From an uncultured Chloroflexia bacterium (GTDB lineage Bacteria > Chloroflexota > Anaerolineae > Anaerolineales > Anaerolineaceae), in NCBI GenBank assembly GCA_963704755.1, contig OY969938.1, positions 2,160,001 through 2,192,000 of the forward strand: a stretch of 32,000 nucleotides of DNA, given 5' to 3'. Positions 2,493 through 32,000 of this stretch are shown here, piece after piece. Position 1 is the first letter of the stretch. Every line of letters starts with the position of its first letter. The translations under genes were made by a program, and so were the position numbers. The notes beneath the pieces were generated by a model, which saw nothing but the letters and a program-made list of their open reading frames with translations, was not told the origin of the DNA and did no database searches.

Positions 2493-2523
2493 ATATAGCG
2501 CACTACGGTAAGGGGCAGTATTC

Positions 2524-4276: not shown

Positions 4277-4298
4277 CTGTTAGCTTTTAGCGGTTAGC
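4267..4298 (+). repeat. Phase-exact TAGC heptamer array (5 units) containing the rnhB stop codon
   Basis: TAGC starts at 4267, 4274 (the rnhB TAG stop), 4281, 4288 and 4295, a spacing of exactly 7 nt. Confidence 0.9.
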
Positions 4299-4347
4299 CC
4301 CCCTTCCCCGCTTCCCCCCAAATCAAAAACCGATTCGGAGGGAAGGG
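4298..4347. repeat. ~45-nt dispersed motif (CCCCCCTTCCCNGCTTCCCCCCAAATCAAAAACCGATTNGGAGG)
   Basis: A near-identical inverted copy lies at 25279-25322. A partial copy (ccctccaaatcggtttttgatttg) lies at 30233-30256. Confidence 0.85.
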
Positions 4348-5576: not shown

Positions 5577-5614
5577 TACTAATTTCTAATCTCTCTTCTC
5601 TATCTGGACTTCAC

Positions 5615-7198
5615 ATGGATAAACTCACCTGGCAGCAAGCGCGCCAGCTAACCCCCGAAAAAATTGAGCCCGCCCGCGCGGTATTGGAAGCCATCCGCGA
5701 CGGGGCGGACGTATTTAAAACGATCCGCCATTATCCCCTGCCGGGAGGGGGCTACCTGGCCAAGTCAGTGCTGGTGGCGGTGTACGACCAGCTCGTCGCC
5801 AGCGGTGAATGGTCCCCTAACGAAGATCTGCTCGGCCGCATCCGCATGAAACCGGTGCGCACCCTATCGGGCGTCACCACTGTGACCGTGCTGACCAAGC
5901 CCTACCCGTGCCCGGGCAAGTGCATCTTCTGCCCCACCGACGTGCGCATGCCCAAGAGCTACCTGCCGGACGAGCCCGGCGCGGCCCGCGCCTTTCAAAA
6001 TGACTTCGACCCGTATGCCCAGGTCGCTTCCCGCCTGGAGTCGTACAGGGCCAACGGCCACCCGATCGATAAGATCGAGCTGCTCATCCTGGGCGGCACC
6101 TGGAGTTCCTACCGCCGGGATTACCAGTCCTGGTTCATCCAGCGCTGCTTCGATGCCATGAACGGGGTCAACTCGCAAACCCTGGCCGAAGCCCAGGAAC
6201 GCAACGAGACCGCCGAGCACCGCAACGTCGGCCTGGTGATCGAGACCCGCCCGGACGAGATCGACCGGCGCGAGATCATCTGGCTGCGCACCCTGGGGGT
6301 GACCAAGGTGCAAATGGGGGCCCAATCGCTGGACGACCGTATTTTAGCTTTGAACGAGCGCGGCCACACCGCCGCTCGGACTTTACAGGCTACCGCCATG
6401 CTGCGCGCAGCCGGTTTCAAGGTGGTGCTGCACTGGATGCCCAACCTGTTAGGCGCCACGCCTGAGTCGGATCGCGAAGATTTCCTGCGCCTGTGGGAGG
6501 GCTACTGCCCGGACGAGATCAAGATTTACCCTTGCCAGTTGCTGGAGGATACCGGCTTGTACGAACACTGGCAGCGCGGGGAGTACCGCCCCTACACCAC
6601 CCAGGAGCTGGTGGACCTGATCGCCGACGTCAACCCGGGCATCCCGCCGTATTGCCGGGTCAACCGCATCATCCGCGACATCCCCTCCACGCATGTGGTC
6701 GAGGGCAACAAGCGCACCAGCCTGCGCCAGGACGTGATGGCCGAACTGGCCCGCCGCGGACAGGAATGCGGCTGCATCCGCTGCCATGAGGTCCGCGGCC
6801 AGCAAGTGGACCCGAGCGACCTGCGCCTGGAAGATTACATCTACCCGGCCGCCAGCGCCGAGGAACATTTTCTGCATTACCGCACCCCGGATGGCAAGAT
6901 TGCCGGCTTTTTACGCCTGTCACTGCCCCAACCCGGCGCTCCCGAACTGGGACTGGCCGATCTGGAAGGCGCTGCTTTGATCCGCGAAGTGCATGTGTAC
7001 GGCCAATCCCTGCACGTCGGGGCCGACCAGGCCGGGGCCGCCCAACACAGCGGCCTGGGCACACACCTGCTGGAGCGGGCCGAACAGATCGCCCAACAGG
7101 CGGGCTTCCGGCACATGGCCGTCATCGCCGCCATTGGCACCCGGCGTTATTATCAAGACCGGGGGTTCCGTAAGGGGGAACTGTACCTAATTAAGTGA
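5615..7198 (+). CDS. elp3: Bacterial Elp3 homologue: radical-SAM / GNAT tRNA U34 carboxymethyl-modification enzyme
   Basis: 527 aa. Radical-SAM cluster CPGKCIFCP, a central radical-SAM barrel (ELLILGGTWS, VGLVIETRPD), a Cys-rich CGCIRC segment, and a C-terminal GNAT part (REVHVYG ... GLGTHLLERAEQIA). Confidence 0.9.
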   Translation: MDKLTWQQARQLTPEKIEPARAVLEAIRDGADVFKTIRHYPLPGGGYLAKSVLVAVYDQLVASGEWSPNEDLLGRIRMKPVRTLSGVTTVTVLTKPYPCPGKCIFCPTDVRMPKSYLPDEPGAARAFQNDFDPYAQVASRLESYRANGHPIDKIELLILGGTWSSYRRDYQSWFIQRCFDAMNGVNSQTLAEAQERNETAEHRNVGLVIETRPDEIDRREIIWLRTLGVTKVQMGAQSLDDRILALNERGHTAARTLQATAMLRAAGFKVVLHWMPNLLGATPESDREDFLRLWEGYCPDEIKIYPCQLLEDTGLYEHWQRGEYRPYTTQELVDLIADVNPGIPPYCRVNRIIRDIPSTHVVEGNKRTSLRQDVMAELARRGQECGCIRCHEVRGQQVDPSDLRLEDYIYPAASAEEHFLHYRTPDGKIAGFLRLSLPQPGAPELGLADLEGAALIREVHVYGQSLHVGADQAGAAQHSGLGTHLLERAEQIAQQAGFRHMAVIAAIGTRRYYQDRGFRKGELYLIK

Positions 7199-9722: not shown

Positions 9723-10547
9723 ATGGGTACCATCTTTGCACATCCTCTCACGGACACATTCGCCCGCCTGGCCGGGCTCAACAAACGATACCCGCCCCTG
9801 GTGCTGACTTCACCCACCGAGCAGGAGGGCTGGTTTCCTGTCGCCGGCCTGCCGGCCCAGGGCAATGCCCGCATGGTCACAGCCCTGGACAACTATCGCA
9901 TGGCCCACCCGGCCAGCGACAACCTGGCGCCGGCTTCGCGCTGGTTTGCCGGCTACCTCAACGATTTGATGATCGTCGTTTTCGGCTGCTACCTCAGTGA
10001 CCAACGCCTGCCGGACCTGCGCCCCGAGCAAGTCTGGGTGCGCTTCGATCCGCATGGTGAAGTGGCCGGCCTGGCCTGGCCCGGTGCGCAAGTGAGTGGG
10101 TTGGCCGAAAACAATAACGTTACGTTATCCTATGGTGTCGTCCTGGATACAATCGACGCTTTACGCGAGCACTTGCAAGATGAATTGATCCGCCACCTGG
10201 AGCCGGTCAGTGAAGCGCTGGCCGCCAGCTCGGTCTTTAAAAAGCCGGCCATCTGGGCCCTGGCGGCTGACTATGTGGCCAAGACCATGCAGTGGACCGC
10301 TCGCCTGTTGGGAGATGAATTACTGGGTATCCAGGAGGCGCGCCTGGTCAATGCATCGGTCTCTAAACTGCACCGCAACCGGGGTTTCATCGAAGTCGAA
10401 GGCCCTTCCGGGCCGATCTATTTCGTCGAACGGGCGGCCTGCTGCCAGAAACGCTATATCCTGGGGAAGACCAACTGCGCCACCTGCCCTAACCGGCCCC
10501 TGGAGGAGCGTATCGAGATGGCCAGGGGGAAGGCGGAGAAGGAATAA
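9723..10547 (+). CDS. FhuF-like siderophore-iron reductase / (2Fe-2S)-binding protein
   Basis: 274 aa. The C-terminal CCQKRYILGKTNCATC matches the C-C-x10-C-x2-C motif characteristic of FhuF. Confidence 0.7.
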   Translation: MGTIFAHPLTDTFARLAGLNKRYPPLVLTSPTEQEGWFPVAGLPAQGNARMVTALDNYRMAHPASDNLAPASRWFAGYLNDLMIVVFGCYLSDQRLPDLRPEQVWVRFDPHGEVAGLAWPGAQVSGLAENNNVTLSYGVVLDTIDALREHLQDELIRHLEPVSEALAASSVFKKPAIWALAADYVAKTMQWTARLLGDELLGIQEARLVNASVSKLHRNRGFIEVEGPSGPIYFVERAACCQKRYILGKTNCATCPNRPLEERIEMARGKAEKE

Positions 10548-10637
10548 GGTGACGAGGCAACAAGTAAAGAGGCAATGAGGTGACAAGGCAACCAGGTAGG
10601 AGGGCAATAAGGCGGCGAGGCAACCAGTGAAGAGGGG
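10546..10637 (+). repeat. Purine-rich GAGGCAA/GGTGAC word array between convergent genes
   Basis: aaggtgacgaggcaacaagtaaagaggcaatgaggtgacaaggcaaccaggtaggagggcaataaggcggcgaggcaaccagtgaag. It uses the same word set as the arms at 5324-5576 and is dense in TGA/TAA/TAG on the + strand. Confidence 0.8.
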
Positions 10638-10640
10638 GCA

Positions 10641-11789
10641 CTATTCCTGGATTGCTTTTAATATCTCGTCCGACTGGTAAATGCGGTTGCGGGCTTTACC
10701 GGTGATTTCGCGCAGCACGCCGGCATGCTCGAGTTTTTCTATGTAGTCAACGGCGGTTTTGAATGGGATACCCAATCCATCGGCAACTTGACGCGCCGAC
10801 AATATTGGCCGGGAGAAGGTAAAATCGATCAACTTCCCCATGCGGTCCGGGTTCCGGTCGGCTTTTACGATGGCTTGCTGCTGCTCATGCATTTCACGCA
10901 GGTGTTCCATCCGGCCGACGCTGCCCCGGGCCTGCTCGCTGATGCCGCGTAAAAAGAAGCGCAGCCAGGGTTCCCAATTCCCTTTTTGGGAAACCGCCAT
11001 CAATAGGTCATAATATTCCTGCCGGTAGTGTTCGATATAAACGCTCAAATTGAGCAGCGGCCGAGAGAGCAGCCCCCATTCGTGCAGCAAAACCGTGACC
11101 AGCAGACGTCCGACCCGGCCATTACCATCCAAAAAGGGGTGGATGGCCTCGAATTGGTAATGGATCATCCCAATCCGCACCAGCGGTGGAACCTGCGTCT
11201 CAGCATGGATAAACGTTTCAAGTGCAGCCAGGGCCTGGTGCATCTCATCCATGGGCGGCGGTACATAGGGTGCGTCAGAGGGGGTGCTTCCGGCCGGGCC
11301 GATCCAGTTCTGGCTGCGCCGGAATTCGCCGGGAATCAACGCGCCGCCGCGTACGTTTTTCATCAAAATCTCGTGCAGCTCGCGGATCAGGCGCAAACTG
11401 AGTGGCAGTGTTTTGAGCCGCTCCAGGCCATAATCCGTGGCCTGGACGTAGTTGTAAACTTCACCCACTTCGTTGGCCGTTTCGAAAAAAGAAAGTTGGG
11501 TCGTTTCGTATGCATAAAGATCCGCCAATGAAGAACGTATGCCTTCGATGCGCGAGGATAGCACCGCCTCATTGCGGACAAACGGCTGGATCAGCAGACG
11601 CGGGAAGGGAAAGGTATTGGCCAATGTAGAAAGCCGGCTCAAATCCCGCACGGCCTCCGCCAGGGCGGAAACCAGGGGCAGCGACCAGCCCAGGTCCGGC
11701 GGCAACGGTTCCGGAATGAATGTCCAGAAGCCACCCCGGGCTAAGGCGGGCCTGCCCGCAGCCCGGTTTTGAAAACTTTTAGGATCCAT
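10641..11789 (-). CDS. Fic/DOC family protein (class II: N-terminal inhibitory helix, C-terminal winged-helix)
   Basis: Fic core HPFLDGNGRVGRLL. SSRIEG fits the (S/T)xxxE(G/N) auto-inhibitory motif upstream of the core. The C-terminal ~70 aa look HTH-like (ARQVADGLGIPFKTAVDYIEKLEHAGVL). Confidence 0.92.
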   Translation of the reverse strand: MDPKSFQNRAAGRPALARGGFWTFIPEPLPPDLGWSLPLVSALAEAVRDLSRLSTLANTFPFPRLLIQPFVRNEAVLSSRIEGIRSSLADLYAYETTQLSFFETANEVGEVYNYVQATDYGLERLKTLPLSLRLIRELHEILMKNVRGGALIPGEFRRSQNWIGPAGSTPSDAPYVPPPMDEMHQALAALETFIHAETQVPPLVRIGMIHYQFEAIHPFLDGNGRVGRLLVTVLLHEWGLLSRPLLNLSVYIEHYRQEYYDLLMAVSQKGNWEPWLRFFLRGISEQARGSVGRMEHLREMHEQQQAIVKADRNPDRMGKLIDFTFSRPILSARQVADGLGIPFKTAVDYIEKLEHAGVLREITGKARNRIYQSDEILKAIQE

Positions 11790-11816
11790 AGCGTAATTTT
11801 AAAATCAGCGCCAAAG

Positions 11817-11905
11817 TGTAAATAAGGTCCTTTTATATTAACACTTTTGGCTCTAAATGTAAATAACGGAGCGTGTAATTTACACCTTGACCATCAAATG
11901 TAAAT
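11817..11905. promoter_or_regulatory. Four TGTAAAT/TGTAATT boxes, two embedded in palindromes (candidate operator cluster)
   Basis: Boxes at 11817-11823, 11858-11864, 11874-11880 and 11899-11905. GTGTAA-T-TTACAC (11873-11885) and GTAA-A-TTAC (11900-11908) are perfect palindromes. They lie in the Fic/NurA divergent intergenic region. Confidence 0.4.
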
Positions 11906-11954
11906 TACCTGGCCCGCATATAGAGCCAGGCTACAGGTCACAGGCGATCTTTTC

Positions 11955-11983
11955 TTGCCCTACCCTGCCAATTCCGCTATAAT
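11955..11983 (+). promoter_or_regulatory. Candidate sigma70-type promoter for the NurA-like operon
   Basis: TTGCCC (11955-11960), 17-nt spacer, TATAAT (11978-11983). Confidence 0.5.
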
Positions 11984-12018
11984 CCAAACAAATGTTCGAG
12001 TAAGGTAACTGAGCCCCC

Positions 12019-12066
12019 AATTTGAGGTGTTTGCGGGTGAAGATTCGCCCGCAAACACCTCAAATT
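12019..12066. repeat. Hairpin of the CCGAATTTGAGRTGTTTGC arm family, located in the predicted 5' UTR of the NurA-like gene
   Basis: aatttgaggtgtttgcggg-tgaagattc-gcccgcaaacacctcaaatt, a 19-20-bp stem. It is the only family member with a larger loop. Confidence 0.85.
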
Positions 12067-12098
12067 CGAGAACGCTTCAGGATAATCAGGTTTTTTTC

Positions 12099-13289
12099 AT
12101 GCCGGTCAATTACGCCCAGGTCCAACAGAAGATTCGCGAAAAGAGCGGGCAAGCCCGCACCCGCCAGGTAGAGGCGCGCCAGAAGCTCGAACGCGCCTGC
12201 AACTTGCTGCGCGAACAGGCCGGCAACCTGGACGAGCTGCGCGCACGGGTCAATGCCCTGGCGGCCCGCGAGCGCAACCTGCGCTGCGCCGTTCCGCTGG
12301 ACGAGAACCTGGACACGGCCCATCTGGCCCCTGTGCCGGAGGAATACCCCCACCTGCTGGCCGCCGATGGCTCACAAATCAACCCGGACCGGCACAACCC
12401 GGTCGAGTTTGCCCTGGTCAACCTGGGCATCATCCACATGACGCCGGGCAAGGCCCAGGTTCCGGACGAAACGGTCCACACCCAGCTTTTCCTCTACGAC
12501 GATGTGGAAAGCAGCCACGGGCCATTAACCGAAGAACAGGTCGCCTTACAGCGCGACCTCGAAGAGCGCCAGGTGCTGGCCGACATGGCCGCCCGCCTGC
12601 CCGGCCTGCTGCCGGTATTGACCCTGACCGATGGCCCCCTGGAGCTGTACCGCGAGCCCAAAGAAAACCGCGCCTTCGAGGAGGCCTTCAAGCAATACCT
12701 GGACGTTTTGGAGCGCATGGCCGGCACCAATGTGATCGCGGCCGGCTACGTGGATAAGCCCGCCAGCGATCTGGTGGTGCGCCTGCTGGAGCTGGCGCTG
12801 TATAAACCCGAGCAGCTTGAGCAGGCCAGCCAGGAGCGGCAGCTCTTTGGTGTACCCGACCGGACCTTGTTCGCCGGCCTGCTGCCGCCGGGGGCGCGCA
12901 GCGCCTTGTTCGCCATCCAGTCCAGCGGCGCCGAGCGCTTCCGCACGCGCAGCCAGGGATTGAGCCCCTGCTTTTTCTACCTCAACGTGGGCCGCGAAAA
13001 TTATCCCTGGCCGGTACGGGTCGAAATTCCCCTATGGGTTGCGCGCCACCCCCCAATGGTGGATTTGCTGCACGCTACCTTGCTGCAGCAGTGCCGCCAG
13101 ATGGGCGCCGGGAGCTTTCCATATGCCCTGCACCGCGCTCACGAGATCGCGGTGGTTTCGTATCAGGATGCCCAACAGGTGCAAACCCTGATCGAACTGG
13201 AATTGCGCCGGCTGGGCCTGGACGTGGGCGACAAATCGTACAAACAATCCGCAAAAGACCTGGAGGGCCGCACGGTTTATAAAGCATGA
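12099..13289 (+). CDS. NurA-like nuclease domain protein
   Basis: Start trimmed to the ATG at 12099, because the track start at 12027 is a GTG inside the palindrome. LLAADGSQINP (DGS motif), LTLTDGPLELY, AAGYVDKPASD and FPYALHRAHEIAVVS follow the conserved NurA motif order as I recall it. Confidence 0.65.
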   Translation: MPVNYAQVQQKIREKSGQARTRQVEARQKLERACNLLREQAGNLDELRARVNALAARERNLRCAVPLDENLDTAHLAPVPEEYPHLLAADGSQINPDRHNPVEFALVNLGIIHMTPGKAQVPDETVHTQLFLYDDVESSHGPLTEEQVALQRDLEERQVLADMAARLPGLLPVLTLTDGPLELYREPKENRAFEEAFKQYLDVLERMAGTNVIAAGYVDKPASDLVVRLLELALYKPEQLEQASQERQLFGVPDRTLFAGLLPPGARSALFAIQSSGAERFRTRSQGLSPCFFYLNVGRENYPWPVRVEIPLWVARHPPMVDLLHATLLQQCRQMGAGSFPYALHRAHEIAVVSYQDAQQVQTLIELELRRLGLDVGDKSYKQSAKDLEGRTVYKA

Positions 13290-13897
13290 ACGCGATCGAA
13301 ATTGGACGCCTGTTAAGGGCCGGTACGACCGGCTGTGTGATCGGCTGCCGGGTGACGCAATTGAGCGTCCCGGCCTTCGGCGGGATGGTGCGTATCCCCC
13401 TGGAAGACGGCAGCCAGGTCTATGGCCTGATCCACGACATTCACATCGACGACGACGGGCTGGTGCGCCAGTTGGTCACCGCCGGCGAGGTCAGCGAGGA
13501 CGTCCTGCTCGACAACCGCGTCAACCGCAACGTCCCGGTCGAAATCGAAGTTATTTTTATCGGCTACGAGAGCGATGGCCGGCTCAGTCACCTGCTGCCG
13601 CCCCGCCCGCCGCTGACCCTGGACAAGATCTTTACTTGCGACGATGCGGAAATCGTGCGTTTTACCGCTGCCGGCCGCTTTGGCTACTTCCGCCACGTGC
13701 TGCGCAACACCGACCTGCCCCAGGGCGAACTGCTGGCGGCTCACTTGCAGCAGGCCCAAGAGGCCCAGGCCAGCCTGGGCGATTCGGACTGGGGCCGCCG
13801 GGCCACCCAGGAACTAATCACCCTGCTGCGCGATGATTACCCCACCTTAATGAGCGTGCTCAGCGCCGTAGCGGATGGCGGGTTGTTTGTGGAGTAG
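13286..13897 (+). CDS. Hypothetical protein resembling an isolated HerA N-terminal HAS-barrel domain (no ATPase domain)
   Basis: ATGA overlap with the upstream stop (13286-13289). The beta-rich pattern IGRLLRAGTTGCVIGCRV...GGMVRIPLEDGSQVYGLIHDIHIDDD...VEIEVIFIGYESDG...LDKIFTCDDAEIVRF resembles HAS-barrel sequences. There is no Walker A motif. The CDS itself is confident; the fold assignment is tentative. Confidence 0.5.
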   Translation: MNAIEIGRLLRAGTTGCVIGCRVTQLSVPAFGGMVRIPLEDGSQVYGLIHDIHIDDDGLVRQLVTAGEVSEDVLLDNRVNRNVPVEIEVIFIGYESDGRLSHLLPPRPPLTLDKIFTCDDAEIVRFTAAGRFGYFRHVLRNTDLPQGELLAAHLQQAQEAQASLGDSDWGRRATQELITLLRDDYPTLMSVLSAVADGGLFVE

Positions 13898-13948: not shown

Positions 13949-13983
13949 ACTAAAAGCTAAGAGCTAAAAGCTAAACGCTATTC
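13949..13983 (+). repeat. Phase-exact GCTAA heptamer array (5 units)
   Basis: ACTAA at 13949, GCTAA at 13956, 13963 and 13970, and GCTAT at 13977, a spacing of exactly 7 nt. It lies just upstream of the DMT gene. Confidence 0.85.
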
Positions 13984-16757: not shown

Positions 16758-16800
16758 AAAGAATCCTTAATGTGCTTCTTATTCTAAATACAATCCGAAG

Positions 16801-17206
16801 AATCCCCCCTGCCCCCCTTTCCCAAGGGGGGAAAAACCCAGTAGATCCTTGGATAAGGAGATCAGGACCAAAAATTTACCCCTTTTTCAAGGGGAAAAGC
16901 CAAACCCAGTATAAGTCTTGAATCAATGGAAGTACGGTGAGCCTGGAAGCACCCCCCTTTCTCAAGGGGAAAAGCCAAACCCAGTATAAGTCTTGAATCA
17001 ATGGAAGTACGGTGAGCCTGGAAGCACCCCCCTTTCTCAAGGGGAAAAGCCAAACCCAGTATAAGTCTTGAATCAATGAAAGTACGGTGAGCCTGGAAGC
17101 CTTTCCTTTCTCAAGGGGAAAAGTCAAACCCAGTTAAAGCCTTGAATAATGAAAGTACGGTGAGCCCGGGAGCACCCCCCCTTCTCAAGGGGGGCCAGGG
17201 GGGATT
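16801..17206. repeat. Tandem array of a 74-75-bp unit (~4.3 good copies plus one degenerate copy), each unit carrying a CCCCTT-loop-AAGGGG hairpin
   Basis: The unit landmark ctcaa/ttcaa recurs at 16886, 16961, 17036, 17110 and 17184. The units at 16951-17100 are almost identical. The unit is ...cccctttctcaaggggaaaagccaaacccagtataagtcttgaatcaatggaagtacggtgagcctggaagcac. Confidence 0.92.
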
Positions 17207-17592
17207 CTTTTATCAACCCCGGTAATTGCGACAATCTGTTGGTATACGCCATCCAGGTTTTCCAAGACTTCCTGATTGGTAAAACGGATAATGGATAAAC
17301 CGTAACCTTGCAGAATTTTACTCCGAGCTTCATCATATTCCTGAGCGTCTTTGCCTGCATGCGTATCTCCATCAATTTCTATCACAAGCCTCAAGGCAGG
17401 AATATAAAAATCGACAATAAAATTATCGATCGGCCGCTGGCGTAAAACACGCAGGGGAAAATTTCGGAGCACAGAGAACCACAGCTTTTTCTCAGCCGGA
17501 GTTTGATTCGCACGCAAATATTTTGCCCGCTCGACCAGGTTTGGGTTATACGGCAAGAAAAAATTTGAACGGATTAGGTTGCCGGAAGGCAT
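17185..17592 (-). CDS. DUF559 (Vsr-like endonuclease fold) domain protein
   Basis: 135 aa. LRQRPIDNFIVDFYIPALRLVIEIDGDTH...ARSKILQGYGLSIIRFTNQEV matches the DUF559 pattern. The last ~9 codons and the TGA stop (17185-17187) lie inside the G/C hairpin repeat. Confidence 0.88.
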   Translation of the reverse strand: MPSGNLIRSNFFLPYNPNLVERAKYLRANQTPAEKKLWFSVLRNFPLRVLRQRPIDNFIVDFYIPALRLVIEIDGDTHAGKDAQEYDEARSKILQGYGLSIIRFTNQEVLENLDGVYQQIVAITGVDKRIPPGPP

Positions 17593-17680
17593 TTCCCACC
17601 TTTTTTCCCAAAGGAATTAGTAATTACCTCAATTTATTATAGGCGAGCAAAAAATCCGCATAATGCTGACTTTTGCCAAG

Positions 17681-17715
17681 AATCCCCCCTGCCCCCCTTT
17701 CTCAAGGGGGGAAAG
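17681..17715. repeat. 35-nt G/C hairpin motif AATCCCCCCTGCCCCCCTTTCTCAAGGGGGGAAAG
   Basis: A direct copy lies at 16801-16836 (2 differences) and an inverted copy at 17175-17206 (ccccccc-ttctcaa-gggggg-ccaggggggatt). Together they bracket the tandem array and the DUF559 gene. Confidence 0.9.
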
Positions 17716-25012: not shown

Positions 25013-25055
25013 CTCTTGGCGATGGTGGGTTACGGGTAGCCAGCGACGAGCTGCT

Positions 25056-25241
25056 GTAGGTTGGGTTGCGGGCTCTACTGCAACATTAATTATTGAACAA
25101 AACATATACACACCCAGGCTTTGCCCGTAACCCAACAACGGCAATACCCAAGCTCAATGTTGGGTTACGGGCAGAGCCTGGAACTTTACACAATCCAACA
25201 AATTACCGGCGTTTTGAATGAGCCCGAAACCCAACCTCTAC
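25056..25241. repeat. Double-stem ~185-nt element, copy C
   Basis: The outer arms are gtaggttgggttgcgggctc (25056-25075) and gagcccgaaacccaacctctac (25220-25241). The inner arms are cccaggctttgcccgtaacccaa (25113-25135) and ttgggttacgggcagagcctgg (25160-25181). The two stems are separated by ~37-nt unpaired segments. Confidence 0.88.
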
Positions 25242-25278
25242 AGGCTTAGCGTTCCGGCGAGCGCAACTTAACGCCTTA

Positions 25279-25351: not shown

Positions 25352-25435
25352 GATGGTGGGTTACGGGCATAACCCGGTTTACCACGCCGGCCTTTGATTC
25401 ACCGGCGCAATCGATGAGCCCTCCACCCACCCTAC
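25352..25435. repeat. Diverged right half of a double-stem element (GGTGGGT variant)
   Basis: gatggtgggttacgggcataacccgg ... gagccctccacccaccctac. The same gatggtgggttacggg word occurs at 25021-25036. Confidence 0.55.
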
Positions 25436-25437
25436 AA

Positions 25438-25477
25438 GCTAAGCGCTAAAAGCTAATCGCTAAACGTTACCAGCTAA
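25438..25477. repeat. Phase-exact GCTAA heptamer array (TTAGC in the sense of the minus-strand gene) containing that gene's stop codon
   Basis: GCTAA at 25438, 25445, 25452, 25459 and 25473, with a variant GTTAC at 25466. CTA at 25474-25476 is the TAG stop of the minus-strand CDS 25474-27033. Confidence 0.9.
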
Positions 25478-27033
25478 TGGCTTGCCGGCTTCCGGGGCGC
25501 ATCGGGCACATAAATAAACAGATCACCCTGGCGGTAGATCGGTGTGTAATTATCCACAATGGGGATGCTGACGTAATGCACCCAGGCGTTCTCTTCCGGG
25601 GCCAGGATGTCGGTTTTTACGTCGCGGGTGTCGTAATACTGGCCGGTCGCGATGATCAAGGCATAATCATGGTTATAGATATGGTCGTTGAAAGTGTTCA
25701 GGTAGGCGGTCTGGTTAGCCATGATCATTTCCATCAGGATCACCTTGTCGTACGGCAGGTACAGGTTGGCTTGGGCCTCCTTGAATGCCAAAAGGTCGCG
25801 ATAATCCAGGAAAAGGACCGGCTTGCCCGACAGGCCGTAGTTCCGGATGATCGTCTGGACTACCCGGTCGTCGATATGGACCGGCGCGGCAGTGGCCGGC
25901 TTGTTCATGAACCCCACGTAGAACAAGGGGATCAGCACCACAGCCGTTTGCCAGGCCAGCCTGGCCGGGCCGGCAAATATCGGCCCGGCCGGAAGGTCAT
26001 GATCGGGACGAAAGCGCTCCAGGTAAACATAAAAAGTGATCACCAGCAGCAAGAGGAAAAAGCCATCCAGGTTGTGCAGGTTGAAGGTGCCCCCGATGCG
26101 CATGCTGACCAGCAGCCCGCCCGCGCCAAAGGCTGCCAGCGCCAACGCCAAACCCACCAGGCGCAGCCAGACATAGCCGCGCCACTTACGGATTACAAAA
26201 CCGGCCAGGAAAACCAGAAAAGGGGCAGAAAGGAGCAGCAACCCGCCCAGCACCCCCAGTGGATAGAAGTTATTGGGCAGCAGGCGCAGCGGCCAGAAGG
26301 AATAGTTATAGCGCGGGTCCAGGGCCAGCATTGGGTCAGCACTGGCCCGGGAGTATACCAGGTAGCTCCCCAGGGCGGCGATGCTTCCGCCGGCAGCCAG
26401 CCCCAGCGGATGCCGGACGTAACGCATCCTGCTTTGCTCGCCCTGCTCCTGCTCCAGCAAAAACAGGCAAGCCGCCAGGACCCCCGGCAGAGGGAACCAG
26501 TTGATCCGGCAAATTCCCTCCCACAGCGAGGCCAAAATCACCACCAGGTACGTGCGGGACATCTTTTTGCGGTCGAATAAAGCCAGCACCAGGATAGGCC
26601 CCAGGAGCAAATGGTAATAAATCGGGCCGGCTTCGAAGATCAGCACGCTAAAAAGCACCAGCGCCAGCCCTTTTTTCCAGGAAATCGGGCGCAGCCGGCG
26701 GACCAGCGCCACGGCCGTGGCCAATGGCAGCAGCAGGCTGAGAACCTGCACCCAGGCGCGGAACAGGATCAAGGAAGCGTTGGGCAGCAAGAAGACCAGG
26801 CCATCCAGGAGCGCCCGGCCAGGGTCCAGCACCGGCCAGGCCGGTCTGGCGCCATATACTACCGGTGCAAAGATCATCGACGCGTCGAAGATGTGGCTGA
26901 ATTCAGACCAGGCCTCGGGGCTGTCGCTCGAGTTGATCGCCGCCAGGTGGTAGCTGAGAATAAAGACATACCCGGCTGCCAGCGCAAGGGCCAGTAAATA
27001 TTTAAAAAGGGTTTCTTTGGTTATTCGCTTCAT
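25474..27033 (-). CDS. Large multi-pass membrane protein with C-terminal soluble domain (possible GT-C-type glycosyltransferase; function unknown)
   Basis: 519 aa. About 11 hydrophobic helices occupy the first ~390 aa, followed by a ~130-aa soluble tail. The ATG at 27033 is preceded by aggcttcctttt (RBS-like aaggaag on the coding strand). No catalytic motif was recognised. Confidence 0.7.
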   Translation of the reverse strand: MKRITKETLFKYLLALALAAGYVFILSYHLAAINSSDSPEAWSEFSHIFDASMIFAPVVYGARPAWPVLDPGRALLDGLVFLLPNASLILFRAWVQVLSLLLPLATAVALVRRLRPISWKKGLALVLFSVLIFEAGPIYYHLLLGPILVLALFDRKKMSRTYLVVILASLWEGICRINWFPLPGVLAACLFLLEQEQGEQSRMRYVRHPLGLAAGGSIAALGSYLVYSRASADPMLALDPRYNYSFWPLRLLPNNFYPLGVLGGLLLLSAPFLVFLAGFVIRKWRGYVWLRLVGLALALAAFGAGGLLVSMRIGGTFNLHNLDGFFLLLLVITFYVYLERFRPDHDLPAGPIFAGPARLAWQTAVVLIPLFYVGFMNKPATAAPVHIDDRVVQTIIRNYGLSGKPVLFLDYRDLLAFKEAQANLYLPYDKVILMEMIMANQTAYLNTFNDHIYNHDYALIIATGQYYDTRDVKTDILAPEENAWVHYVSIPIVDNYTPIYRQGDLFIYVPDAPRKPASH

Positions 27034-28685: not shown

Positions 28686-29452
28686 TGCTATACACTTACG
28701 AAAATGGACCTGAAGATGGCCCGGCCATCGTTTTTCTGCATGCCGGCGGTTTGAGCAGCAAATCCTGGCTGCCGGTGATCGAACGCCTGCCCGAATTCCA
28801 CTGCCTGGCCCCGGACCTGCCCGAGCAGGGCCAGAGCAAAGCCATACCATACAGCATCAACGGCAGCGCGCAGGAAGTAGCCGAGATCATTCGCCAGCGC
28901 CTGCCGGGCCAGAAGGCTCACCTGGTGGCCCTCTCGCTGGGCGGGCCGGTGGCGCTGACCCTGCTGCGCATCACCCCCGAGCTGATCGATCATGTCCTCC
29001 TTTCCGGCAGTTCCGGGCATTTCTCGCGCTGGTTGTCCGAGGTGGGCAAAGCCTCGATCTGGATGTACCGGCTCTACAAGCCGGACTACCTCATTCGCCA
29101 GACGATCCACCAGCACGGCATACCGGAAGAATATGCCGATCTGGTGCGCGATGACATCGCCCAATCGCTCTCGCCCGATTTCATGCGCCGCTACATGACC
29201 GACCTGTCCACCTGGGAACTGCCAGAGCAGATAGAAAGCCCGCTGTTGATTGTAGTCGGCGAGCAGGAAATGAAAGCCGCCCGCTCGATCGCCCGAGGAT
29301 ATCTCAAGCGCTATCCTACCGCCCAGGGCGTGCTCGCCCCCAACGCCAGACATGCCTGGTCCCTGCAATACCCGGACCTCTTCGCCAGCCTGGTCCGTGC
29401 CTGGGTCAGCGATCAGCCTATCCCCGGGGAGTTTATAGCTTTTAGCTGTTAG
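28685..29452 (+). CDS. Alpha/beta-fold hydrolase
   Basis: TAATG overlap with the regulator gene. IVFLHAGG (oxyanion region) and the nucleophile elbow ALSLGG (GxSxG-like), with a late His (ARHAW). Confidence 0.85.
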   Translation: MLYTYENGPEDGPAIVFLHAGGLSSKSWLPVIERLPEFHCLAPDLPEQGQSKAIPYSINGSAQEVAEIIRQRLPGQKAHLVALSLGGPVALTLLRITPELIDHVLLSGSSGHFSRWLSEVGKASIWMYRLYKPDYLIRQTIHQHGIPEEYADLVRDDIAQSLSPDFMRRYMTDLSTWELPEQIESPLLIVVGEQEMKAARSIARGYLKRYPTAQGVLAPNARHAWSLQYPDLFASLVRAWVSDQPIPGEFIAFSC

Positions 29453-29467
29453 CTGTTAGCTGTTAGC
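29436..29467 (+). repeat. Phase-exact TAGC heptamer array (5 units) containing the hydrolase stop codon
   Basis: TAGC at 29436, 29443, 29450 (the TAG stop), 29457 and 29464. The last five codons (IAFSC) are array-encoded. Confidence 0.92.
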
Positions 29468-29724
29468 CCGTAGGTTGGGTTGCGGGCTCTATCGCAACCA
29501 TGGCGATTGGAAAGAATGTATAAAAGCCCAGGCTCCGCCCGTAACCCAACAGCCCGTAGGTTGGGTTGCGGGCTCTATTGCAACCATGGCGATTGGAAAG
29601 AATGTATGAATGCCCAGGCTCTGCCCGTAACCCAACAGCCCATAGGTTGGGTTGCGGGCTCTATTGCAACCAAGGCGATTGGAAAGAATGTATGAATGCC
29701 CAGGCTCCGCCCGTAACCCAACAG
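29467..29724 (+). repeat. Three tandem 86-bp copies of the left half of the double-stem element
   Basis: (g/a)tagg starts at 29470, 29556 and 29642. The unit is gtaggttgggttgcgggctc-N37-gcccaggctc(c/t)gcccgtaacccaacagccc. Confidence 0.92.
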
Positions 29725-29824
29725 GGGTAATACTGAGCGCAATATTGGGTTACGGGCAGAGCCTGGAATGTTACACAATCCAGCAATTTATCGGCGTTCT
29801 GAATGAGCCCGCAACCCAACCTAC
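29642..29824. repeat. Double-stem ~185-nt element, copy A
   Basis: Outer arms 29642-29661 and 29805-29824. Inner arms 29699-29721 and 29745-29766. Apical loop ggggtaatactgagcgcaata. Confidence 0.9.
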
Positions 29825-29830
29825 AGACTG

Positions 29831-29856
29831 TTAGCGATTAGCTTTAGGCGGTTAGC
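29831..29856 (+). repeat. TTAGC heptamer array (4 units)
   Basis: TTAGC at 29831, 29838 and 29852, and TTAGG at 29845. The duplicated copy at 30125-30136 has only 2 units. Confidence 0.85.
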
Positions 29857-29936
29857 TCCTGTTCGTAGCCCGGCTTTCTAAGCCGGGGGGTAGCTGAACC
29901 TACCGGCCGGGAAAACCGCGACGCAGCCCGTAGCCC

Positions 29937-30119
29937 GTAGGTTGGGTTGCGGGCTCTATCGCAACAATGGCGATTGGAAAGAATGTATAAAAGCCCAGGC
30001 TCCGCCCGTAACCCAACAGAGGTAATACTGAGCGCAATATTGGGTTACGGGCAGAGCCTGGAATGTTACGCAATCCAGCAATTTATCGGCGTTCTGAATG
30101 AGCCCGCAACCCAACCTAC
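29937..30119. repeat. Double-stem ~185-nt element, copy B
   Basis: Outer arms 29937-29956 and 30100-30119. Near-identical to copy A. Confidence 0.9.
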
Positions 30120-30257
30120 AGACTGTTAGCGATTAGCTCCTGTTCGTAGCCCGGCTTTCTAAGCCGGGGGGTAGCTGAACCTACCGGCCGGGAAAACCGC
30201 GGCGTAGATTTTAGGGGAGGAATTTGTCTCTTCCCTCCAAATCGGTTTTTGATTTGA

Positions 30258-30303
30258 GCCCCTCTCCCAGAAGCGGGAGAGGGGCTGGGGTGAGGGCGAA
30301 GCG
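30258..30303. repeat. G/C hairpin plus GGGGTGAGGG tail, ending in GCGAAGC
   Basis: gcccctctccc-agaagc-gggagaggggc, then tggggtgaggg, then GCGAAGC at 30296-30302. Confidence 0.88.
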
Positions 30304-30335
30304 CCGGCCAATACGCGAGTTCTTGACAGCCAACC

Positions 30336-30384
30336 GCTAATCGCCAATAGCTAACAGCTACCCGCTAACCGCTATCAGCTATTT
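30336..30384 (+). repeat. Phase-exact GCTAA-type heptamer array (7 units) abutting a promoter
   Basis: GC(T/C)A(A/C/T) units start at 30336, 30343, 30350, 30357, 30364, 30371 and 30378, a spacing of exactly 7 nt. The array ends where the -35 box begins. Confidence 0.9.
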
Positions 30385-30410
30385 GACTTCCGCCCCGCTT
30401 TTTCTATAAT
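30383..30410 (+). promoter_or_regulatory. Near-consensus sigma70-type promoter for the protease-nuclease gene
   Basis: TTGACT (30383-30388), 16-nt spacer, TATAAT (30405-30410). The RBS agggagg (30455-30461) lies 5 nt before the ATG at 30467. Confidence 0.65.
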
Positions 30411-30466
30411 AAACGAAAACAAGCAACGATCCATAACCAGTACTTTTCGCTTATAGGGAGGCAGCC

Positions 30467-32000
30467 ATGCTCATCCATCCTGACGTCATCGCAGCAGCAG
30501 AAAGGCGCATGCCGGCCGGGATGGCCGCGCCCGCCCCGCGCCGGGTCACCCCGGCCGCTGATTTATCCTTCGCTATCGCGCCTACCCCGGCGCCACCCCC
30601 GCCGGTCGATACGGCTTCCTTCGCCGGGCGGGCGGCCAACCTGTCCTTCGGCGGCGCCCATCCCAGCACGATCGAGCTCGAGCGCCTGATCGGCAACAAC
30701 GACCTGGTGGACGAGTTCTATCTCCAGCGCGCGCTGGTCGCCGCCGGGCCGGTGATGCGCATCACCTTGCGCGACCCGGCCGGCCGCGAGCGTGGCTGGG
30801 CGACCGGGTTCATGGTCTCGCCCCACCTGCTGCTGACCAACTGGCACGTCTTCCCCAACCTGGATGAAGCCCAAAACGCCATCGCCGAGGCCAATTACGT
30901 CCTGGATATCGCCGGCAACCCGGCACCCTCTTATCGCTTCGACGTCCACGCCGAACAGTATTACCTGGCCAATCAGCAGCTCGATTTTGCCCTGGTCGGC
31001 GTAACGCCGCTCGCCCAGGATGGCAGCACCCCGCTCAGCCGCTTTGGCTACCACCGCCTGGTAGCAGAGCCTAACAAGATCCGCGAAGGCGAATGTATCA
31101 CCATTATCGAGCACCCTGGCGGGGAGCGCCGCCAGTGCGCCATCCGCGAGAACAACCTGGTCAAAATTTTGGATCAGTTCCTCTGGTACCAGAGTGACAC
31201 CGCCCCTGGCTCATCCGGTGCGCCGGCCTTCAACGATTCGTTCCAGGTTGTCGCCCTGCACCACTCCGGGGCCGCCAAGCGGGATGAGGACGGCAAATAC
31301 GTGCTCAAAGACGGCAGCCTGCGCGATTCGTTGGACGGGGTGGACGAAAGCCAGGTAATCTGGGTGGCCAACGAAGGGCTGCGCATCAGCGTGCTGTGCA
31401 CCTACCTCCAGTCTACCCTCGACCCGGGCAAACCGGTCGAGCAGGAGCTGCTGCAAGCCATGCGCGGCGGGGACGTGCTGGCGGCTGCACTCAAAAATGC
31501 CGCTGTCACCCCCACCCCGGTCGAGGCCGGGCCGGCCCCTTCCGCCCCGGCGCATACCGACCTGCCGGCTGCTCCAGGTACTACCCTGACCATCCCCCTG
31601 CAACTGCAAATTTCGCTGGGCTGGGGCGGGCCGGTCGGGTTGACGGTCACGCCGCAGGCAGGCCAAACCCCGTCCAGCCTGAATCTCGCGCCGTCCGGCC
31701 TTATCGGCGAGGAAGCCCTGCGCTACCCGGTGGTGGACCGCGACTATTCCTCACGCACCGGCTACGACACCGGCTTCCTGGGGATCGATGCCCCGCTGCC
31801 CCAGGTCAGCGACACTTCCCTGGTGGCGGTCATGGCCGACGGGAAGTATGCCATCCCCTACGAACATTTCACCGTAGTGCTCAACAAAAAGCGCCGCCTG
31901 GCCTTGTTTACCGCCTCCAACGTGGATTACGCCCCGGCCAAACGCGAACCCGAGCCGGGCGATTACAGCCGCGACGGCCTGACCGGCCTTGGCCCGCACG
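30467..32000 (+). CDS. Trypsin-like (S1, V8/Glu-endopeptidase-like) serine protease fused to a DNA/RNA non-specific endonuclease domain; 3' end outside the window
   Basis: Not in the ORF track because it has no stop in the window. I translated 511 codons manually from the ATG at 30467 and found no stop. Catalytic-triad contexts are LLLTNWHVF (His codon 30845-30847), QQLDFALVGV (Asp 30983-30985) and DTAPGSSGAP (Ser 31214-31216). A Pro/Ala linker is followed by GYDTGFLG...IPYEHFTVVLNKKRRLALFTASNVDY, typical of the N-terminal part of Endonuclease_NS/NUC-type domains. The DRGH-type active site would lie beyond 32000. Confidence 0.85.
   Translation, partial: MLIHPDVIAAAERRMPAGMAAPAPRRVTPAADLSFAIAPTPAPPPPVDTASFAGRAANLSFGGAHPSTIELERLIGNNDLVDEFYLQRALVAAGPVMRITLRDPAGRERGWATGFMVSPHLLLTNWHVFPNLDEAQNAIAEANYVLDIAGNPAPSYRFDVHAEQYYLANQQLDFALVGVTPLAQDGSTPLSRFGYHRLVAEPNKIREGECITIIEHPGGERRQCAIRENNLVKILDQFLWYQSDTAPGSSGAPAFNDSFQVVALHHSGAAKRDEDGKYVLKDGSLRDSLDGVDESQVIWVANEGLRISVLCTYLQSTLDPGKPVEQELLQAMRGGDVLAAALKNAAVTPTPVEAGPAPSAPAHTDLPAAPGTTLTIPLQLQISLGWGGPVGLTVTPQAGQTPSSLNLAPSGLIGEEALRYPVVDRDYSSRTGYDTGFLGIDAPLPQVSDTSLVAVMADGKYAIPYEHFTVVLNKKRRLALFTASNVDYAPAKREPEPGDYSRDGLTGLGPH

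What the first reader, a model, noticed from the sequence alone, without database searches (positions are those of the whole stretch)
30467..32000. Unlisted open-ended gene: serine protease fused to a non-specific endonuclease
Seen in sequence: an uninterrupted + strand reading frame runs from ATG 30467 (RBS AGGGAGG) to the window edge. It is missing from the ORF track, which lists only antisense shadow ORFs there. The N-terminal ~100 aa are Pro/Ala-rich with no obvious signal peptide. Residues ~100-330 carry an S1 protease His/Asp/Ser triad in canonical contexts. After a Pro-rich linker, the sequence turns into the characteristic opening of a DNA/RNA non-specific endonuclease domain. Established knowledge: each domain is common alone. 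Trypsin-like domains preceded by a conserved helical region (here ELERLIGNNDLVDEFYLQRALVAAGPVMRI) occur as effectors in NTPase-linked conflict systems of multicellular bacteria. Inference: a protease-nuclease dual effector driven by a consensus promoter suggests a toxin or abortive-infection-type effector, or a secreted nutrient-scavenging enzyme. Any partner genes would lie beyond 32000.
Basis: partly seen in the sequence, partly recalled or inferred. Interest (0 to 1): 0.65.

Follow-up and report, generated by a model that had tools for sequence, protein, structure and literature searches.

The report
Stand-alone trypsin-protease / NucA-nuclease fusion gene
The window ends inside a real 733-residue gene that fuses a serine protease to a non-specific DNA/RNA nuclease; it belongs to a large family already predicted in 2020, but never tested, to be a self-activating cell-killing or defence enzyme, so it is a sound but not new finding.

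Summary
An open + strand frame runs from ATG 30467 to the window edge. ATG 30467 is the first start after an in-frame TAA, it has an AGGGAGG ribosome-binding site, and an 11/12 sigma-70-like promoter lies 57 nt upstream. The complete product was recovered from the protein database: 733 aa, with Trypsin_2 at 112-264 and Endonuclease_NS at 460-696. The protease triad (H127, D173, S250) and the nuclease DKGH...N...E core (H544, N572, E594) are invariant in 60 homologues. The nuclease catalytic core lies about 100 nt beyond the window and is intact. The family is large (2,392 clusters at 50% identity with E<=1e-30) and spans many phyla and plasmids. It has no signal peptide, no conserved neighbour and no immunity gene. 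The architecture was noted by Jablonska et al. 2017 and described by Kaur et al. 2020 as the predicted 'NucA-trypsin' conflict system. I found no experimental test. The most likely function is a latent cytoplasmic pro-enzyme whose protease unmasks the nuclease and kills or arrests the cell. This is inferred, and defence-island association is weak. Verdict: a new member of a known, uncharacterised kind, of moderate to low interest.

The parts
30383..30410 (+). Sigma-70-like promoter candidate, TTGACT-16 nt-TATAAT
   Evidence: 11 of 12 matches. It ends 57 nt upstream of the ATG. One site found against 0.8 expected by chance, so it is suggestive only.
30455..30461 (+). Ribosome-binding site AGGGAGG, 5 nt before the start codon
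   Evidence: Read directly.
30467..32000 (+). Coding sequence for residues 1-511 of a 733-aa protease-nuclease. It runs off the window; by calculation the stop would be near 32668.
30467..30508 (+). Conserved N-terminal peptide (aa 1-14, consensus MxIxxxxxxAxExR), predicted to dock on the protease domain
   Evidence: M1 and R14 at 90% or more. pLDDT is 82-87 with a beta-bridge at residue 2 in both the full-length model and the model lacking the nuclease.
30509..30628 (+). Variable Pro/Ala-rich spacer (aa 15-54), 21-83 aa long across the family, predicted disordered
30629..30766 (+). Very highly conserved pre-protease block (aa 55-100), three short helices. Contains invariant E70, E72, R73 and D79. 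R73 aligns with the mature N-terminus of V8 protease.
   Evidence: The V8 alignment is a lead only.
30719..31501 (+). Trypsin-fold serine protease domain (fold aa 85-345; Pfam Trypsin_2 aa 112-264). His127 at 30845-30847, Asp173 at 30983-30985, Ser250 at 31214-31216.
31502..31711 (+). Variable, disordered inter-domain linker (aa 346-415), 43-86 aa long across the family
31577..31621 (+). Conserved hydrophobic hairpin-like motif inside the linker (aa 371-385, GTTLTIPLQLQISLG); candidate cleavage or latch element
   Evidence: the pattern is present in 58 of 60 homologues, and position 380 is L in 49 of 60.
31712..32000 (+). Start of the nuclease domain (aa 416-511 of 416-733). Begins at invariant E416. 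The catalytic His544 (about nt 32096), Asn572 and Glu594 lie beyond the window.

Best explanation
The gene encodes a cytoplasmic, single-polypeptide member of the NucA-trypsin family. It has an S1B-type (V8/Esp-like) serine protease joined by a flexible linker to an EndoG/NucA-type beta-beta-alpha-metal nuclease. Shown here: both domains are present with every catalytic residue invariant; there is no export signal; there is no conserved neighbour or immunity gene; the phyletic distribution is patchy and includes plasmids; and some family members add sensor-type and extra effector domains. Inferred: because a non-specific nuclease is lethal in the cytoplasm and no inhibitor gene accompanies it, the full-length protein must be latent. 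The protease is probably held as a zymogen by its own N-terminal region. That region comprises residues 1-14, which are predicted to dock on the protease, and the invariant ELER|LIGNND junction, which sits at the position of the V8/Esp propeptide cut. On an unknown trigger (phage infection or another stress) the protease would become active and cut at or near the domain boundaries. Candidate sites are the invariant E70/E72, the invariant E416, and the conserved linker hairpin 371-385. This would free or unmask the nuclease, which degrades DNA and RNA indiscriminately and kills or arrests the cell (abortive infection or programmed death).
For: Domains and active sites: Trypsin_2 E = 4e-16 and Endonuclease_NS E = 1e-31. 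H127, D173, S250, D541, G543, H544, N572 and E594 are invariant in 60 sequences of 45-66% identity. FDKGH, TNCSPQV and WGDLE align with EndoG FDRG(H), SNVAPQV and WNNLE. Folds: the closest matches are pro-Esp, V8 and FAM111A for the protease, and EXOG and EndoG for the nuclease. Cytoplasmic location: no signal-peptide-like or TM segment in 120 homologues. No partner: only the gene itself is shared among loci, and tblastx finds no hits in 1.5-kb flanks of 15 loci. Mobility: 64-73% identity between proteins of Chloroflexi, Burkholderiales and Acidobacteriota MAGs. The gene is on 27 plasmids. In Pseudomonas Q1-7 it lies in an AlpA/YfjJ island next to QatA/QatB. In P. chlororaphis it lies next to an IS element and near RES-Xre. 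Conflict-system vocabulary in longer members: TPR-S sensor plus a second trypsin, Peptidase_C25, Metallophos, Lipase_3, alpha/beta-hydrolase. Published prediction of proteolytic deployment of NucA: Kaur et al. 2020. Experimental precedent for a trypsin-like protease unmasking a pro-nuclease: Tuck et al. 2025 and PMC12642450. Zymogen hints: the N-terminal peptide stays confidently predicted without the nuclease domain; there is a conserved linker motif; V8 Val1 aligns at R73.
Against: There is no experimental evidence for this family at all. Most sampled contexts are plain metabolic neighbourhoods, not defence islands (and the window itself). The protein matches no PADLOC defence model apart from generic protease similarity. 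No sensor domain is recognisable in the 733-aa form. The alignment of the V8 N-terminus is not significant on its own (p = 0.13). The downstream neighbours in the source genome were not seen.
Confidence: 0.55

Rival explanations
1. It is a regulated cell-death or stress effector unrelated to phage, for example sacrificing damaged or starved cells in filaments or biofilms. The protease-activates-nuclease logic is the same but the trigger is endogenous.
For: Kaur et al. [quoted passage not shown] Most contexts are not defence islands. The closest sequence relatives include filamentous-type phyla such as Chloroflexi and cyanobacteria.
Against: No regulator or developmental gene is linked to it. 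The source organism and its habit are unknown. The patchy, HGT-like distribution and plasmid carriage are more typical of conflict genes.
Confidence: 0.15
2. It is an extracellular or released digestive enzyme that degrades protein and nucleic acid for nutrient scavenging, predation or biofilm remodelling. Export would be by a non-classical route or by lysis.
For: Canonical NucA, Serratia nuclease and V8/Spl/Esp proteases are all secreted enzymes (established knowledge). Some relatives sit beside other peptidase genes, namely S8 peptidases in B. cereus and matrixin in Stanieria. Longer members add a lipase or a phosphoesterase. Jablonska et al. 2017 suggested a virulence or secretion link.
Against: No signal peptide or TM segment is present in 120 of 120 homologues from both Gram-negative and Gram-positive type phyla. 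No secretion-system genes are linked. A TPR-S sensor fusion does not fit a digestive enzyme.
Confidence: 0.12
3. It is a DNA-metabolism or repair enzyme, for example for DNA-protein crosslink processing. A FAM111A-like protease would remove the protein adduct and an EXOG-like nuclease would process the DNA.
For: FAM111A (E = 1e-10, TM 0.65) and EXOG (E = 6e-10) are among the best structural matches. In Paraburkholderia the gene lies between Ku and an ImuB / DnaE2 / SRAP cluster.
Against: That context was seen in only one genome. The FAM111A similarity is no better than the similarity to V8/Esp. Sequence searches place the nuclease nearest to the non-specific NucA. The patchy distribution is unlike a core repair function.
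Confidence: 0.08
4. It is an inter-bacterial polymorphic-toxin-like protein. The trypsin domain would be a releasing peptidase and the nuclease would be the delivered toxin.
For: Endonuclease_NS-type domains occur as C-terminal toxins of Rhs, CDI and YxiD proteins, and releasing peptidases are a known theme (established knowledge from Zhang et al. 2012, recalled rather than re-read here).
Against: There is no N-terminal trafficking domain, no adjacent immunity gene in any of 15 loci, and no linked secretion system.
Confidence: 0.05

Closest known systems
NucA-trypsin (NucA-peptidase) conflict system, 'System 3' of Kaur, Burroughs, Iyer & Aravind 2020 (eLife 9:e52696, PMC7159879)
   Same: It has the same two core domains (trypsin-like peptidase plus NucA/Endonuclease_NS), which the paper explicitly says are sometimes fused in one protein. 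The proposed logic is the same: proteolysis deploys the nuclease. Alphaproteobacterial plasmid relatives (Rhizobium, Sinorhizobium) match the window protein over 80-90% of its length (E = 1e-88). Relatives with extra peptidases nearby or fused fit the 'multiple peptidases' description.
   Different: The window's subfamily is a solitary gene. The protein has no TM segment and no EAD1, and relatives have no STAND or Death-like partner and no second peptidase gene. The paper counted 45 organisms, mostly alphaproteobacteria. Here the family has 2,392 clusters at 50% identity across many phyla. The published system is a computational prediction without experimental test.
Protease-gated pro-nuclease modules of Hachiman, AVAST and Canu (Tuck et al. 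2025, Science, PMC12799240; also PMC12642450)
   Same: A trypsin-like serine protease is coupled to a latent, non-specific DNA-degrading enzyme that becomes lethal after site-specific cleavage. The protease domain shows weak similarity to defence RT-protease models.
   Different: In those modules the nuclease is MBL-fold, is encoded by a separate gene, and the protease is fused to a sensor (HamA, Avs, caspase partner). Here the nuclease is a beta-beta-alpha-metal (His-Me finger) enzyme, it is covalently fused to the protease, and no sensor is recognisable. Gating insertions were not demonstrated here.
Sugar-non-specific nucleases: Anabaena NucA (with inhibitor NuiA), Serratia nuclease, mitochondrial EndoG and EXOG
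   Same: Same fold and catalytic motif, with His544, Asn572 and Glu594 aligned to the EndoG catalytic residues.
   Different: Those enzymes are kept harmless by secretion, compartmentation or a dedicated inhibitor (NuiA, EndoGI). This protein has no signal peptide and no inhibitor gene. Its motif is DKGH rather than DRGH, and it has a family-specific 45-residue N-terminal extension (aa 416-460).
S1B serine proteases made as zymogens (S. aureus V8/SspA, S. epidermidis Esp, Spl proteases) and human FAM111A
   Same: These are the best structural and sequence matches of the protease domain, with pro-Esp as the top hit. The triad maps onto V8 H51/D93/S169, and an NND motif lies near the V8 mature N-terminus.
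   Different: Those bacterial enzymes are secreted single-domain proteases with cleavable signal peptides and pro-peptides. Here a 70-100-residue cytoplasmic N-terminal extension and a C-terminal nuclease are attached.

Membership tests
Pfam PF13365 Trypsin_2 / MEROPS clan PA, family S1 | Profile score above the curated cut-off | tested here: met
   61.4 bits against a cut-off of 27.6 on the window fragment; 60.4 bits on P0001.
Pfam PF13365 Trypsin_2 / MEROPS clan PA, family S1 | Catalytic triad in the order His, Asp, Ser, with a GxSGxP serine motif | tested here: met
   H127, D173 and S250 (in GSSGAP) are invariant in 60 homologues. They map onto V8 H51/D93/S169.
Pfam PF13365 Trypsin_2 / MEROPS clan PA, family S1 | Double beta-barrel trypsin fold | tested here: met
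   AF2 pLDDT exceeds 90 over most of residues 95-345. Foldseek matches pro-Esp, V8 and SplA with TM 0.70-0.76 normalised by target length.
Pfam PF01223 Endonuclease_NS (His-Me finger, NucA/EndoG type) | Profile score above the curated cut-off | tested here: met
   110.7 bits against a cut-off of 23 on the full product P0001. The in-window 511-aa fragment alone gives no hit.
Pfam PF01223 Endonuclease_NS (His-Me finger, NucA/EndoG type) | Catalytic His in the DRGH motif and the Asn metal ligand | tested here: met
   D541-K-G543-H544 (a K-for-R variant), N572 and E594 are invariant and align with the EndoG FDRG(H), SNVAPQ and NLE motifs. All lie beyond nt 32000.
NucA-trypsin conflict system (Kaur et al. 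2020) | NucA-type endonuclease and trypsin-like peptidase in one protein or one operon | tested here: met
   Both domains are in one 733-aa polypeptide. The definition was read.
NucA-trypsin conflict system (Kaur et al. 2020) | Additional peptidase copies, TM segments, EAD1, or STAND / Death-like partners (present in subsets, not in all members) | tested here: not met
   The protein has no further Pfam domain and no TM segment. Relatives of at least 45% identity have no conserved partner. Distant relatives and long variants do show extra peptidases or TPR-S. The source genome downstream of 32000 was not seen.
NucA-trypsin conflict system (Kaur et al. 2020) | Nuclease deployed by proteolysis; role in biological conflict | not testable with these tools
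   This is a prediction in the source paper as well. No experimental paper was found.
Protease-gated MBL pro-nuclease modules (Tuck et al. 2025) | Nuclease of the metallo-beta-lactamase fold, encoded as a separate gene next to a sensor-fused protease | tested here: not met
   The nuclease is Endonuclease_NS, it is fused to the protease, and there is no sensor. Module features were read.
Protease-gated MBL pro-nuclease modules (Tuck et al. 2025) | Regulatory insertions that block the nuclease active site until cleaved | tested here: inconclusive
   Low-confidence loops at 584-587 and 666-672 and a conserved linker motif exist, but model coordinates could not be inspected.
Secreted sugar-non-specific nucleases (Serratia nuclease, NucA) | N-terminal signal peptide, or a cognate inhibitor gene (NuiA-like) | tested here: not met
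   No signal-peptide-like segment in 120 homologues. No conserved adjacent ORF or sequence.
Catalogued anti-phage defence systems (PADLOC-DB v2.0.0) | Match to a defence-system protein model over the whole protein | tested here: not met
   Only a protease-domain similarity to RT-Protease_XI (E = 1e-6); no hit for the nuclease.

The most novel reading that the evidence does not exclude
The 733-aa protein is a complete one-gene immune or suicide device: sensor, zymogen protease and pro-nuclease in a single chain. The conserved N-terminal peptide (aa 1-14) would act as a latch on the protease. Self-cleavage at the invariant Glu sites (E70/E72 and E416) or at the linker hairpin (aa 371-385) would both mature the protease in the V8 manner and liberate an EndoG-type nuclease. 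That would be a bacterial protein uniting the two activities (an HtrA/Omi-class serine protease and EndoG) that mitochondria release separately in apoptosis. It would also extend the newly established protease-gated nuclease principle to a second, unrelated nuclease fold without any partner gene.
Probability: 0.3. Interest if true: 0.6.

Novelty: new member of a known kind. Interest (0 to 1): 0.35.

Why it matters
If the inferred mechanism holds, this family would be the simplest known protease-gated nuclease: one gene, no partner, thousands of variants across bacterial phyla. It would use a different nuclease fold from the MBL pro-nucleases shown experimentally in 2025. That would make a five-year-old computational prediction (NucA-trypsin) directly testable with a single construct. 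It could also show how a lethal non-specific nuclease is kept silent in the cytoplasm without an inhibitor. For the genome scan itself, the result is mainly a corrected annotation: a real, intact gene cut by the window edge and named only 'DNA/RNA non-specific endonuclease' in public records.

Tried and rejected
1. Recovering the source contig beyond 32000. An exact look-up of P0001 found no record, and the genome-contig scan returned only relatives of at most 67% identity. The downstream neighbours of this particular copy therefore remain unseen.
2. Conserved partner or immunity gene. All-against-all BLASTP of ORFs of at least 80 aa in six loci and tblastx of 1.5-kb flanks in 15 loci found nothing.
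3. Secreted enzyme. A hydrophobicity scan of 120 N-termini found only Ala-rich low-complexity peaks, so this reading was rejected as the leading one.
4. Trypco identity of the N-terminal helices. Rejected: Trypco1/2 (also called Pepco) are separate small proteins.
5. Known defence system. PADLOC gives only generic protease hits, NCBIfam gives nothing, and PHROGs gives one unknown-function protease family. No phage genome carries the fusion.
6. Riboswitch, sRNA or tRNA in the 1-kb upstream spacer. Rfam and ARAGORN found none.
7. Using invariant D244 (six residues before Ser250, like trypsin D189) to predict Arg/Lys specificity. Considered and dropped, because a conserved Asp in this stretch is a generic feature of Trypsin_2 / HtrA-type motifs and the register cannot be fixed without coordinates.
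8. Defence-island enrichment. Only about 2 of 10 chromosomal contexts (the Pseudomonas Q1-7 island; P. chlororaphis IS/TA) look defence-like or mobile. I do not claim enrichment.
9. V8-type propeptide junction at R73. The alignment is consistent but the N-terminal segment alone is not significant (p = 0.13).
Full report
OBSERVATION. The + strand frame starting at ATG 30467 is open for 511 codons up to the window edge. An in-frame TAA lies at 30434-30436, and no ATG, GTG or TTG occurs between it and 30467, so this ATG is the first possible start. AGGGAGG (30455-30461) precedes it by 5 nt. A TTGACT-16-TATAAT site lies at 30383-30410 (11/12). One such site per 1.2 kb is about what chance gives (0.8 expected), so the promoter is plausible by position only. 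The ORF tool does not list ORFs that run off the window. That is why only antisense shadow ORFs appear there. Those shadows are 'conserved' between loci only because the sense strand is conserved.

IDENTITY. Pfam gives Trypsin_2 at residues 112-264 (E = 2e-16) for the in-window fragment, but no Endonuclease_NS hit. The homology search returned P0001, a 733-aa protein that is 100% identical over all 511 residues and comes from a 4.87-Mb contig. This is the complete product of this gene. On P0001, Endonuclease_NS scores E = 1.1e-31 at residues 460-696. In an alignment of 60 homologues (45-66% identical), the protease triad H127, D173, S250 and the nuclease residues D541, G543, H544, N572 and E594 are all invariant. 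FDKGH, VTNCSPQV and WGDLE align with the EndoG motifs FDRG(H), LSNVAPQV and WNNLE. The motif is DKGH rather than the classical DRGH. I verified the triad codons in the DNA (cac 30845, gat 30983, tcc 31214). The nuclease catalytic His would be at about nt 32096, outside the window.

STRUCTURE. AlphaFold2 on the 60-sequence alignment (mean pLDDT 79) gives two confident domains: the protease at about 85-345 and the nuclease at about 418-730. They are joined by a disordered linker (346-415). Upstream lie a disordered Pro/Ala spacer (25-43) and a short, confidently predicted N-terminal helix (residues 5-14, pLDDT 83-87) with a beta-bridge at residue 2. Foldseek against the PDB matches the protease to pro-Esp, V8, exfoliative toxin, Spl and FAM111A, and the nuclease to EXOG and EndoG. 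Profile-to-PDB sequence search agrees, with NucA, Spl, V8 and EndoG as hits. No solved structure contains the fusion. A second model of residues 1-345 only keeps the N-terminal peptide at pLDDT 82-87 with the same beta-bridge. Its confident placement therefore does not depend on the nuclease, and it is predicted to pack on the protease domain.

FAMILY ANATOMY.
- Residues 1-14: conserved peptide MxIxxxxxxAxExR.
- Residues 15-54: variable spacer, 21-83 aa across the family.
- Residues 55-100: the most conserved stretch of the whole protein (RAxxLSxGGAxPSxTELERLxGTNDLVDEFYLERAL...PVCRI, with E70, E72, R73 and D79 invariant). It forms three short helices predicted with low confidence.
- Residues about 100-345: the protease barrel.
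- Residues 346-415: variable linker, 43-86 aa across the family. It contains a conserved alternating-hydrophobic motif (LTIPLQLQISL in this subfamily, R[LI]VLG[TS]LVLEL in others), present in 58 of 60 sequences.
- From the invariant E416 onward: the nuclease.
A semi-global alignment to V8 protease maps the triad onto H51/D93/S169, as known for V8. The alignment puts V8's mature N-terminus at R73 and aligns N77-N78-D79 with V8 N5-N6-D7. The N-terminal piece alone is not significant (p = 0.13). This gives a testable lead: residues 1-73 may act as a pro-region.

DISTRIBUTION AND CONTEXT. The family is large. A profile search of 1.84 billion cluster representatives found 2,392 with E <= 1e-30, and nearly all of the top 150 span both domains. 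Named members come from Chloroflexi, Acidobacteriota, Gemmatimonadota (Longimicrobium), Verrucomicrobiota (Chthoniobacterales), Bacteroidota, Burkholderiales and Pseudomonas. At 31-35% identity the fusion is also on 27 plasmids, of Rhizobium, Sinorhizobium (including pNGR234a), Nostoc, Stanieria and Bacillus cereus, and in a Nonomuraea record. Proteins from different phyla share 64-73% identity, which points to horizontal transfer. No phage genome carries it. None of 120 homologues has a signal-peptide-like or TM segment.

No neighbour is conserved. ORF-level BLASTP across six loci and tblastx of 1.5-kb flanks across 15 loci found nothing shared apart from the gene itself. Contexts are mixed:
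- Pseudomonas sp. Q1-7: the gene lies in an AlpA / YfjJ-type island beside QatA and QatB.
- P. chlororaphis: it lies beside an IS element and near RES-Xre.
- Nostoc plasmid: it lies near ParA and an integrase.
- Paraburkholderia and most metagenomic contigs: the neighbours are ordinary metabolic genes.
- In the window itself the upstream genes are a MarR regulator, an alpha/beta-hydrolase and a B3/4-domain protein, and further upstream there are assorted housekeeping and accessory genes.
- The last 2 kb of the window, which is mostly this gene, has 63% GC against about 58% elsewhere.
I therefore do not claim defence-island enrichment.

VARIANT ARCHITECTURES. Longer family members keep the trypsin-NucA core and add other domains: a TPR-S sensor domain plus a second trypsin (P0234), an N-terminal Peptidase_C25 with a caspase-like fold (P0187, P0197), a C-terminal Metallophos (P0183), Lipase_3 (P0154), a weak alpha/beta-hydrolase match (P0209) or DUF1353 (P0159). 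Some distant relatives have S8 or matrixin peptidase genes next door. This is the domain vocabulary of conflict and cell-death systems.

LITERATURE. Jablonska et al. [quoted passage not shown] Kaur et al. [quoted passage not shown] I found no experimental study of it. Experimental precedent for the logic exists with a different nuclease. Trypsin-like proteases of Hachiman and AVAST cut gating insertions out of an MBL-fold pro-nuclease, after specific Ile residues (Tuck et al. 2025). Other protease-effector modules (alpha/beta-hydrolase, Pepco also known as Trypco, EACC1) work in the same way (PMC12642450). Endonuclease_NS is not among the modules listed there. PADLOC-DB v2 has no model for the protein beyond generic protease similarity to RT-Protease_XI.

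INTERPRETATION. Firmly shown:
- The gene is real and intact, and encodes an S1B-like protease fused to a NucA/EndoG-type nuclease.
- Both active sites are conserved.
- The protein is cytoplasmic by sequence criteria, is solitary, and belongs to a large, horizontally mobile family.
Inferred: a non-specific nuclease without an export signal or an inhibitor must be latent, and the covalently attached protease is the obvious activator. The conserved N-terminal peptide, the ELER|LIGNND junction, the linker hairpin and the invariant E416 are candidate regulatory or cleavage elements. The trigger is unknown. I put 0.55 on the protease-gated suicide or defence nuclease reading. The remainder is spread over an endogenous cell-death role with the same chemistry (0.15), a released digestive enzyme (0.12), a repair function (0.08) and an inter-bacterial toxin (0.05).

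VERDICT. The expectation of partner genes and the secreted alternative are not supported. The architecture is already described in the literature. This copy is a new member of a known but experimentally untested kind. The stand-alone subfamily's breadth and its conserved N-terminal and linker elements are the only additions made here. Interest is moderate to low (0.35).

Noticed in passing
window 29430-30382: The 1-kb spacer between the alpha/beta-hydrolase gene and the protease-nuclease promoter is made of nested repeats. There are four copies of an 86-89-nt unit (three of them tandem) that folds into a strong hairpin (MFE -36 kcal/mol, z = -4.0). There is also a 207-nt pair (96%), a 79-nt pair (96%) and inverted partial copies. 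No Rfam or tRNA hit. It looks like a cluster of MITE/REP-like elements.
   Followed up: partly
window 25050-25251: A diverged copy (73%) of the 89-nt hairpin unit lies here with its 101-nt partner (84-85% to 29736-29836 and 30031-30131). The element is therefore dispersed, with at least two insertion areas in the window.
   Followed up: no
window 4267-4300, 13950-13980, 25432-25476, 29430-29467, 30323-30382: Short tandem heptamer arrays (TAGCTGT / TAGCTTT, which read AGCTAAN on the other strand) recur at gene boundaries. There are 12 matches to the 14-mer against 0.03 expected by chance. The two arrays flanking the repeat block upstream of the gene are in inverted orientation, and the right one abuts the -35 hexamer. 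They could be STRR-like repeats or regulator sites.
   Followed up: partly
window 5466-5581: An octamer tandem array (TTGACTTA and variants) lies immediately upstream of the radical-SAM/GNAT (ELP3-like) ORF at 5615-7198.
   Followed up: no
window 16798-17714: Four tandem copies with a period of 73-75 nt (103-nt register, 60-99% identity to the reference copy) lie at 16879-17204. They are flanked by a 37-nt pair (97%) of CCCCCC...GGGGGG hairpins at 16798-16834 and 17678-17714. This region also has the lowest GC of the window, at 51%.
   Followed up: no
window 10641-13897: A Fic/DOC-family gene with a C-terminal HTH (10641-11789, - strand) lies next to a NurA-domain nuclease gene (12027-13289, +). 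The NurA gene is followed by an overlapping 203-aa ORF (13286-13897) that was not scanned. This could be a toxin-like or defence-like pair unrelated to the finding.
   Followed up: no
window 25474-27033: A 519-aa - strand ORF with no Pfam hit overlaps a 367-aa + strand ORF (25477-26580). Which strand codes, if either, was not resolved.
   Followed up: no
window 1319-2503 and 2374-2449: The longest version of the esterase ORF (- strand, GTG start at 2503) overlaps the tRNA-Pro(TGG) gene on the + strand. The Pfam match covers only residues 159-367, so the true start is probably downstream of the tRNA.
   Followed up: no
L005 9923-12218 (uncultured Chloroflexia MAG, CAWBQF010000003.1): The homologue is split into two overlapping ORFs (9923-10741 and 10734-12218). 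This is either a frameshift pseudogene or an assembly indel.
   Followed up: no
L007 1-2623 (Pseudomonas sp. Q1-7, CP116304.1): QatB and a KAP-NTPase (QatA-like) lie 7-10 kb from the homologue, within an island that also carries DUF932, YqaJ, AlpA and YfjJ-type genes. This is the only clear defence-island context seen.
   Followed up: partly
proteins P0234, P0187, P0197, P0183, P0154, P0159, P0209: These are 900-1,700-aa family members that add other domains to the trypsin-NucA core: TPR-S plus a second trypsin, Peptidase_C25, Metallophos, Lipase_3, DUF1353 or a weak alpha/beta-hydrolase match. Their genomic contexts were not examined.
   Followed up: partly
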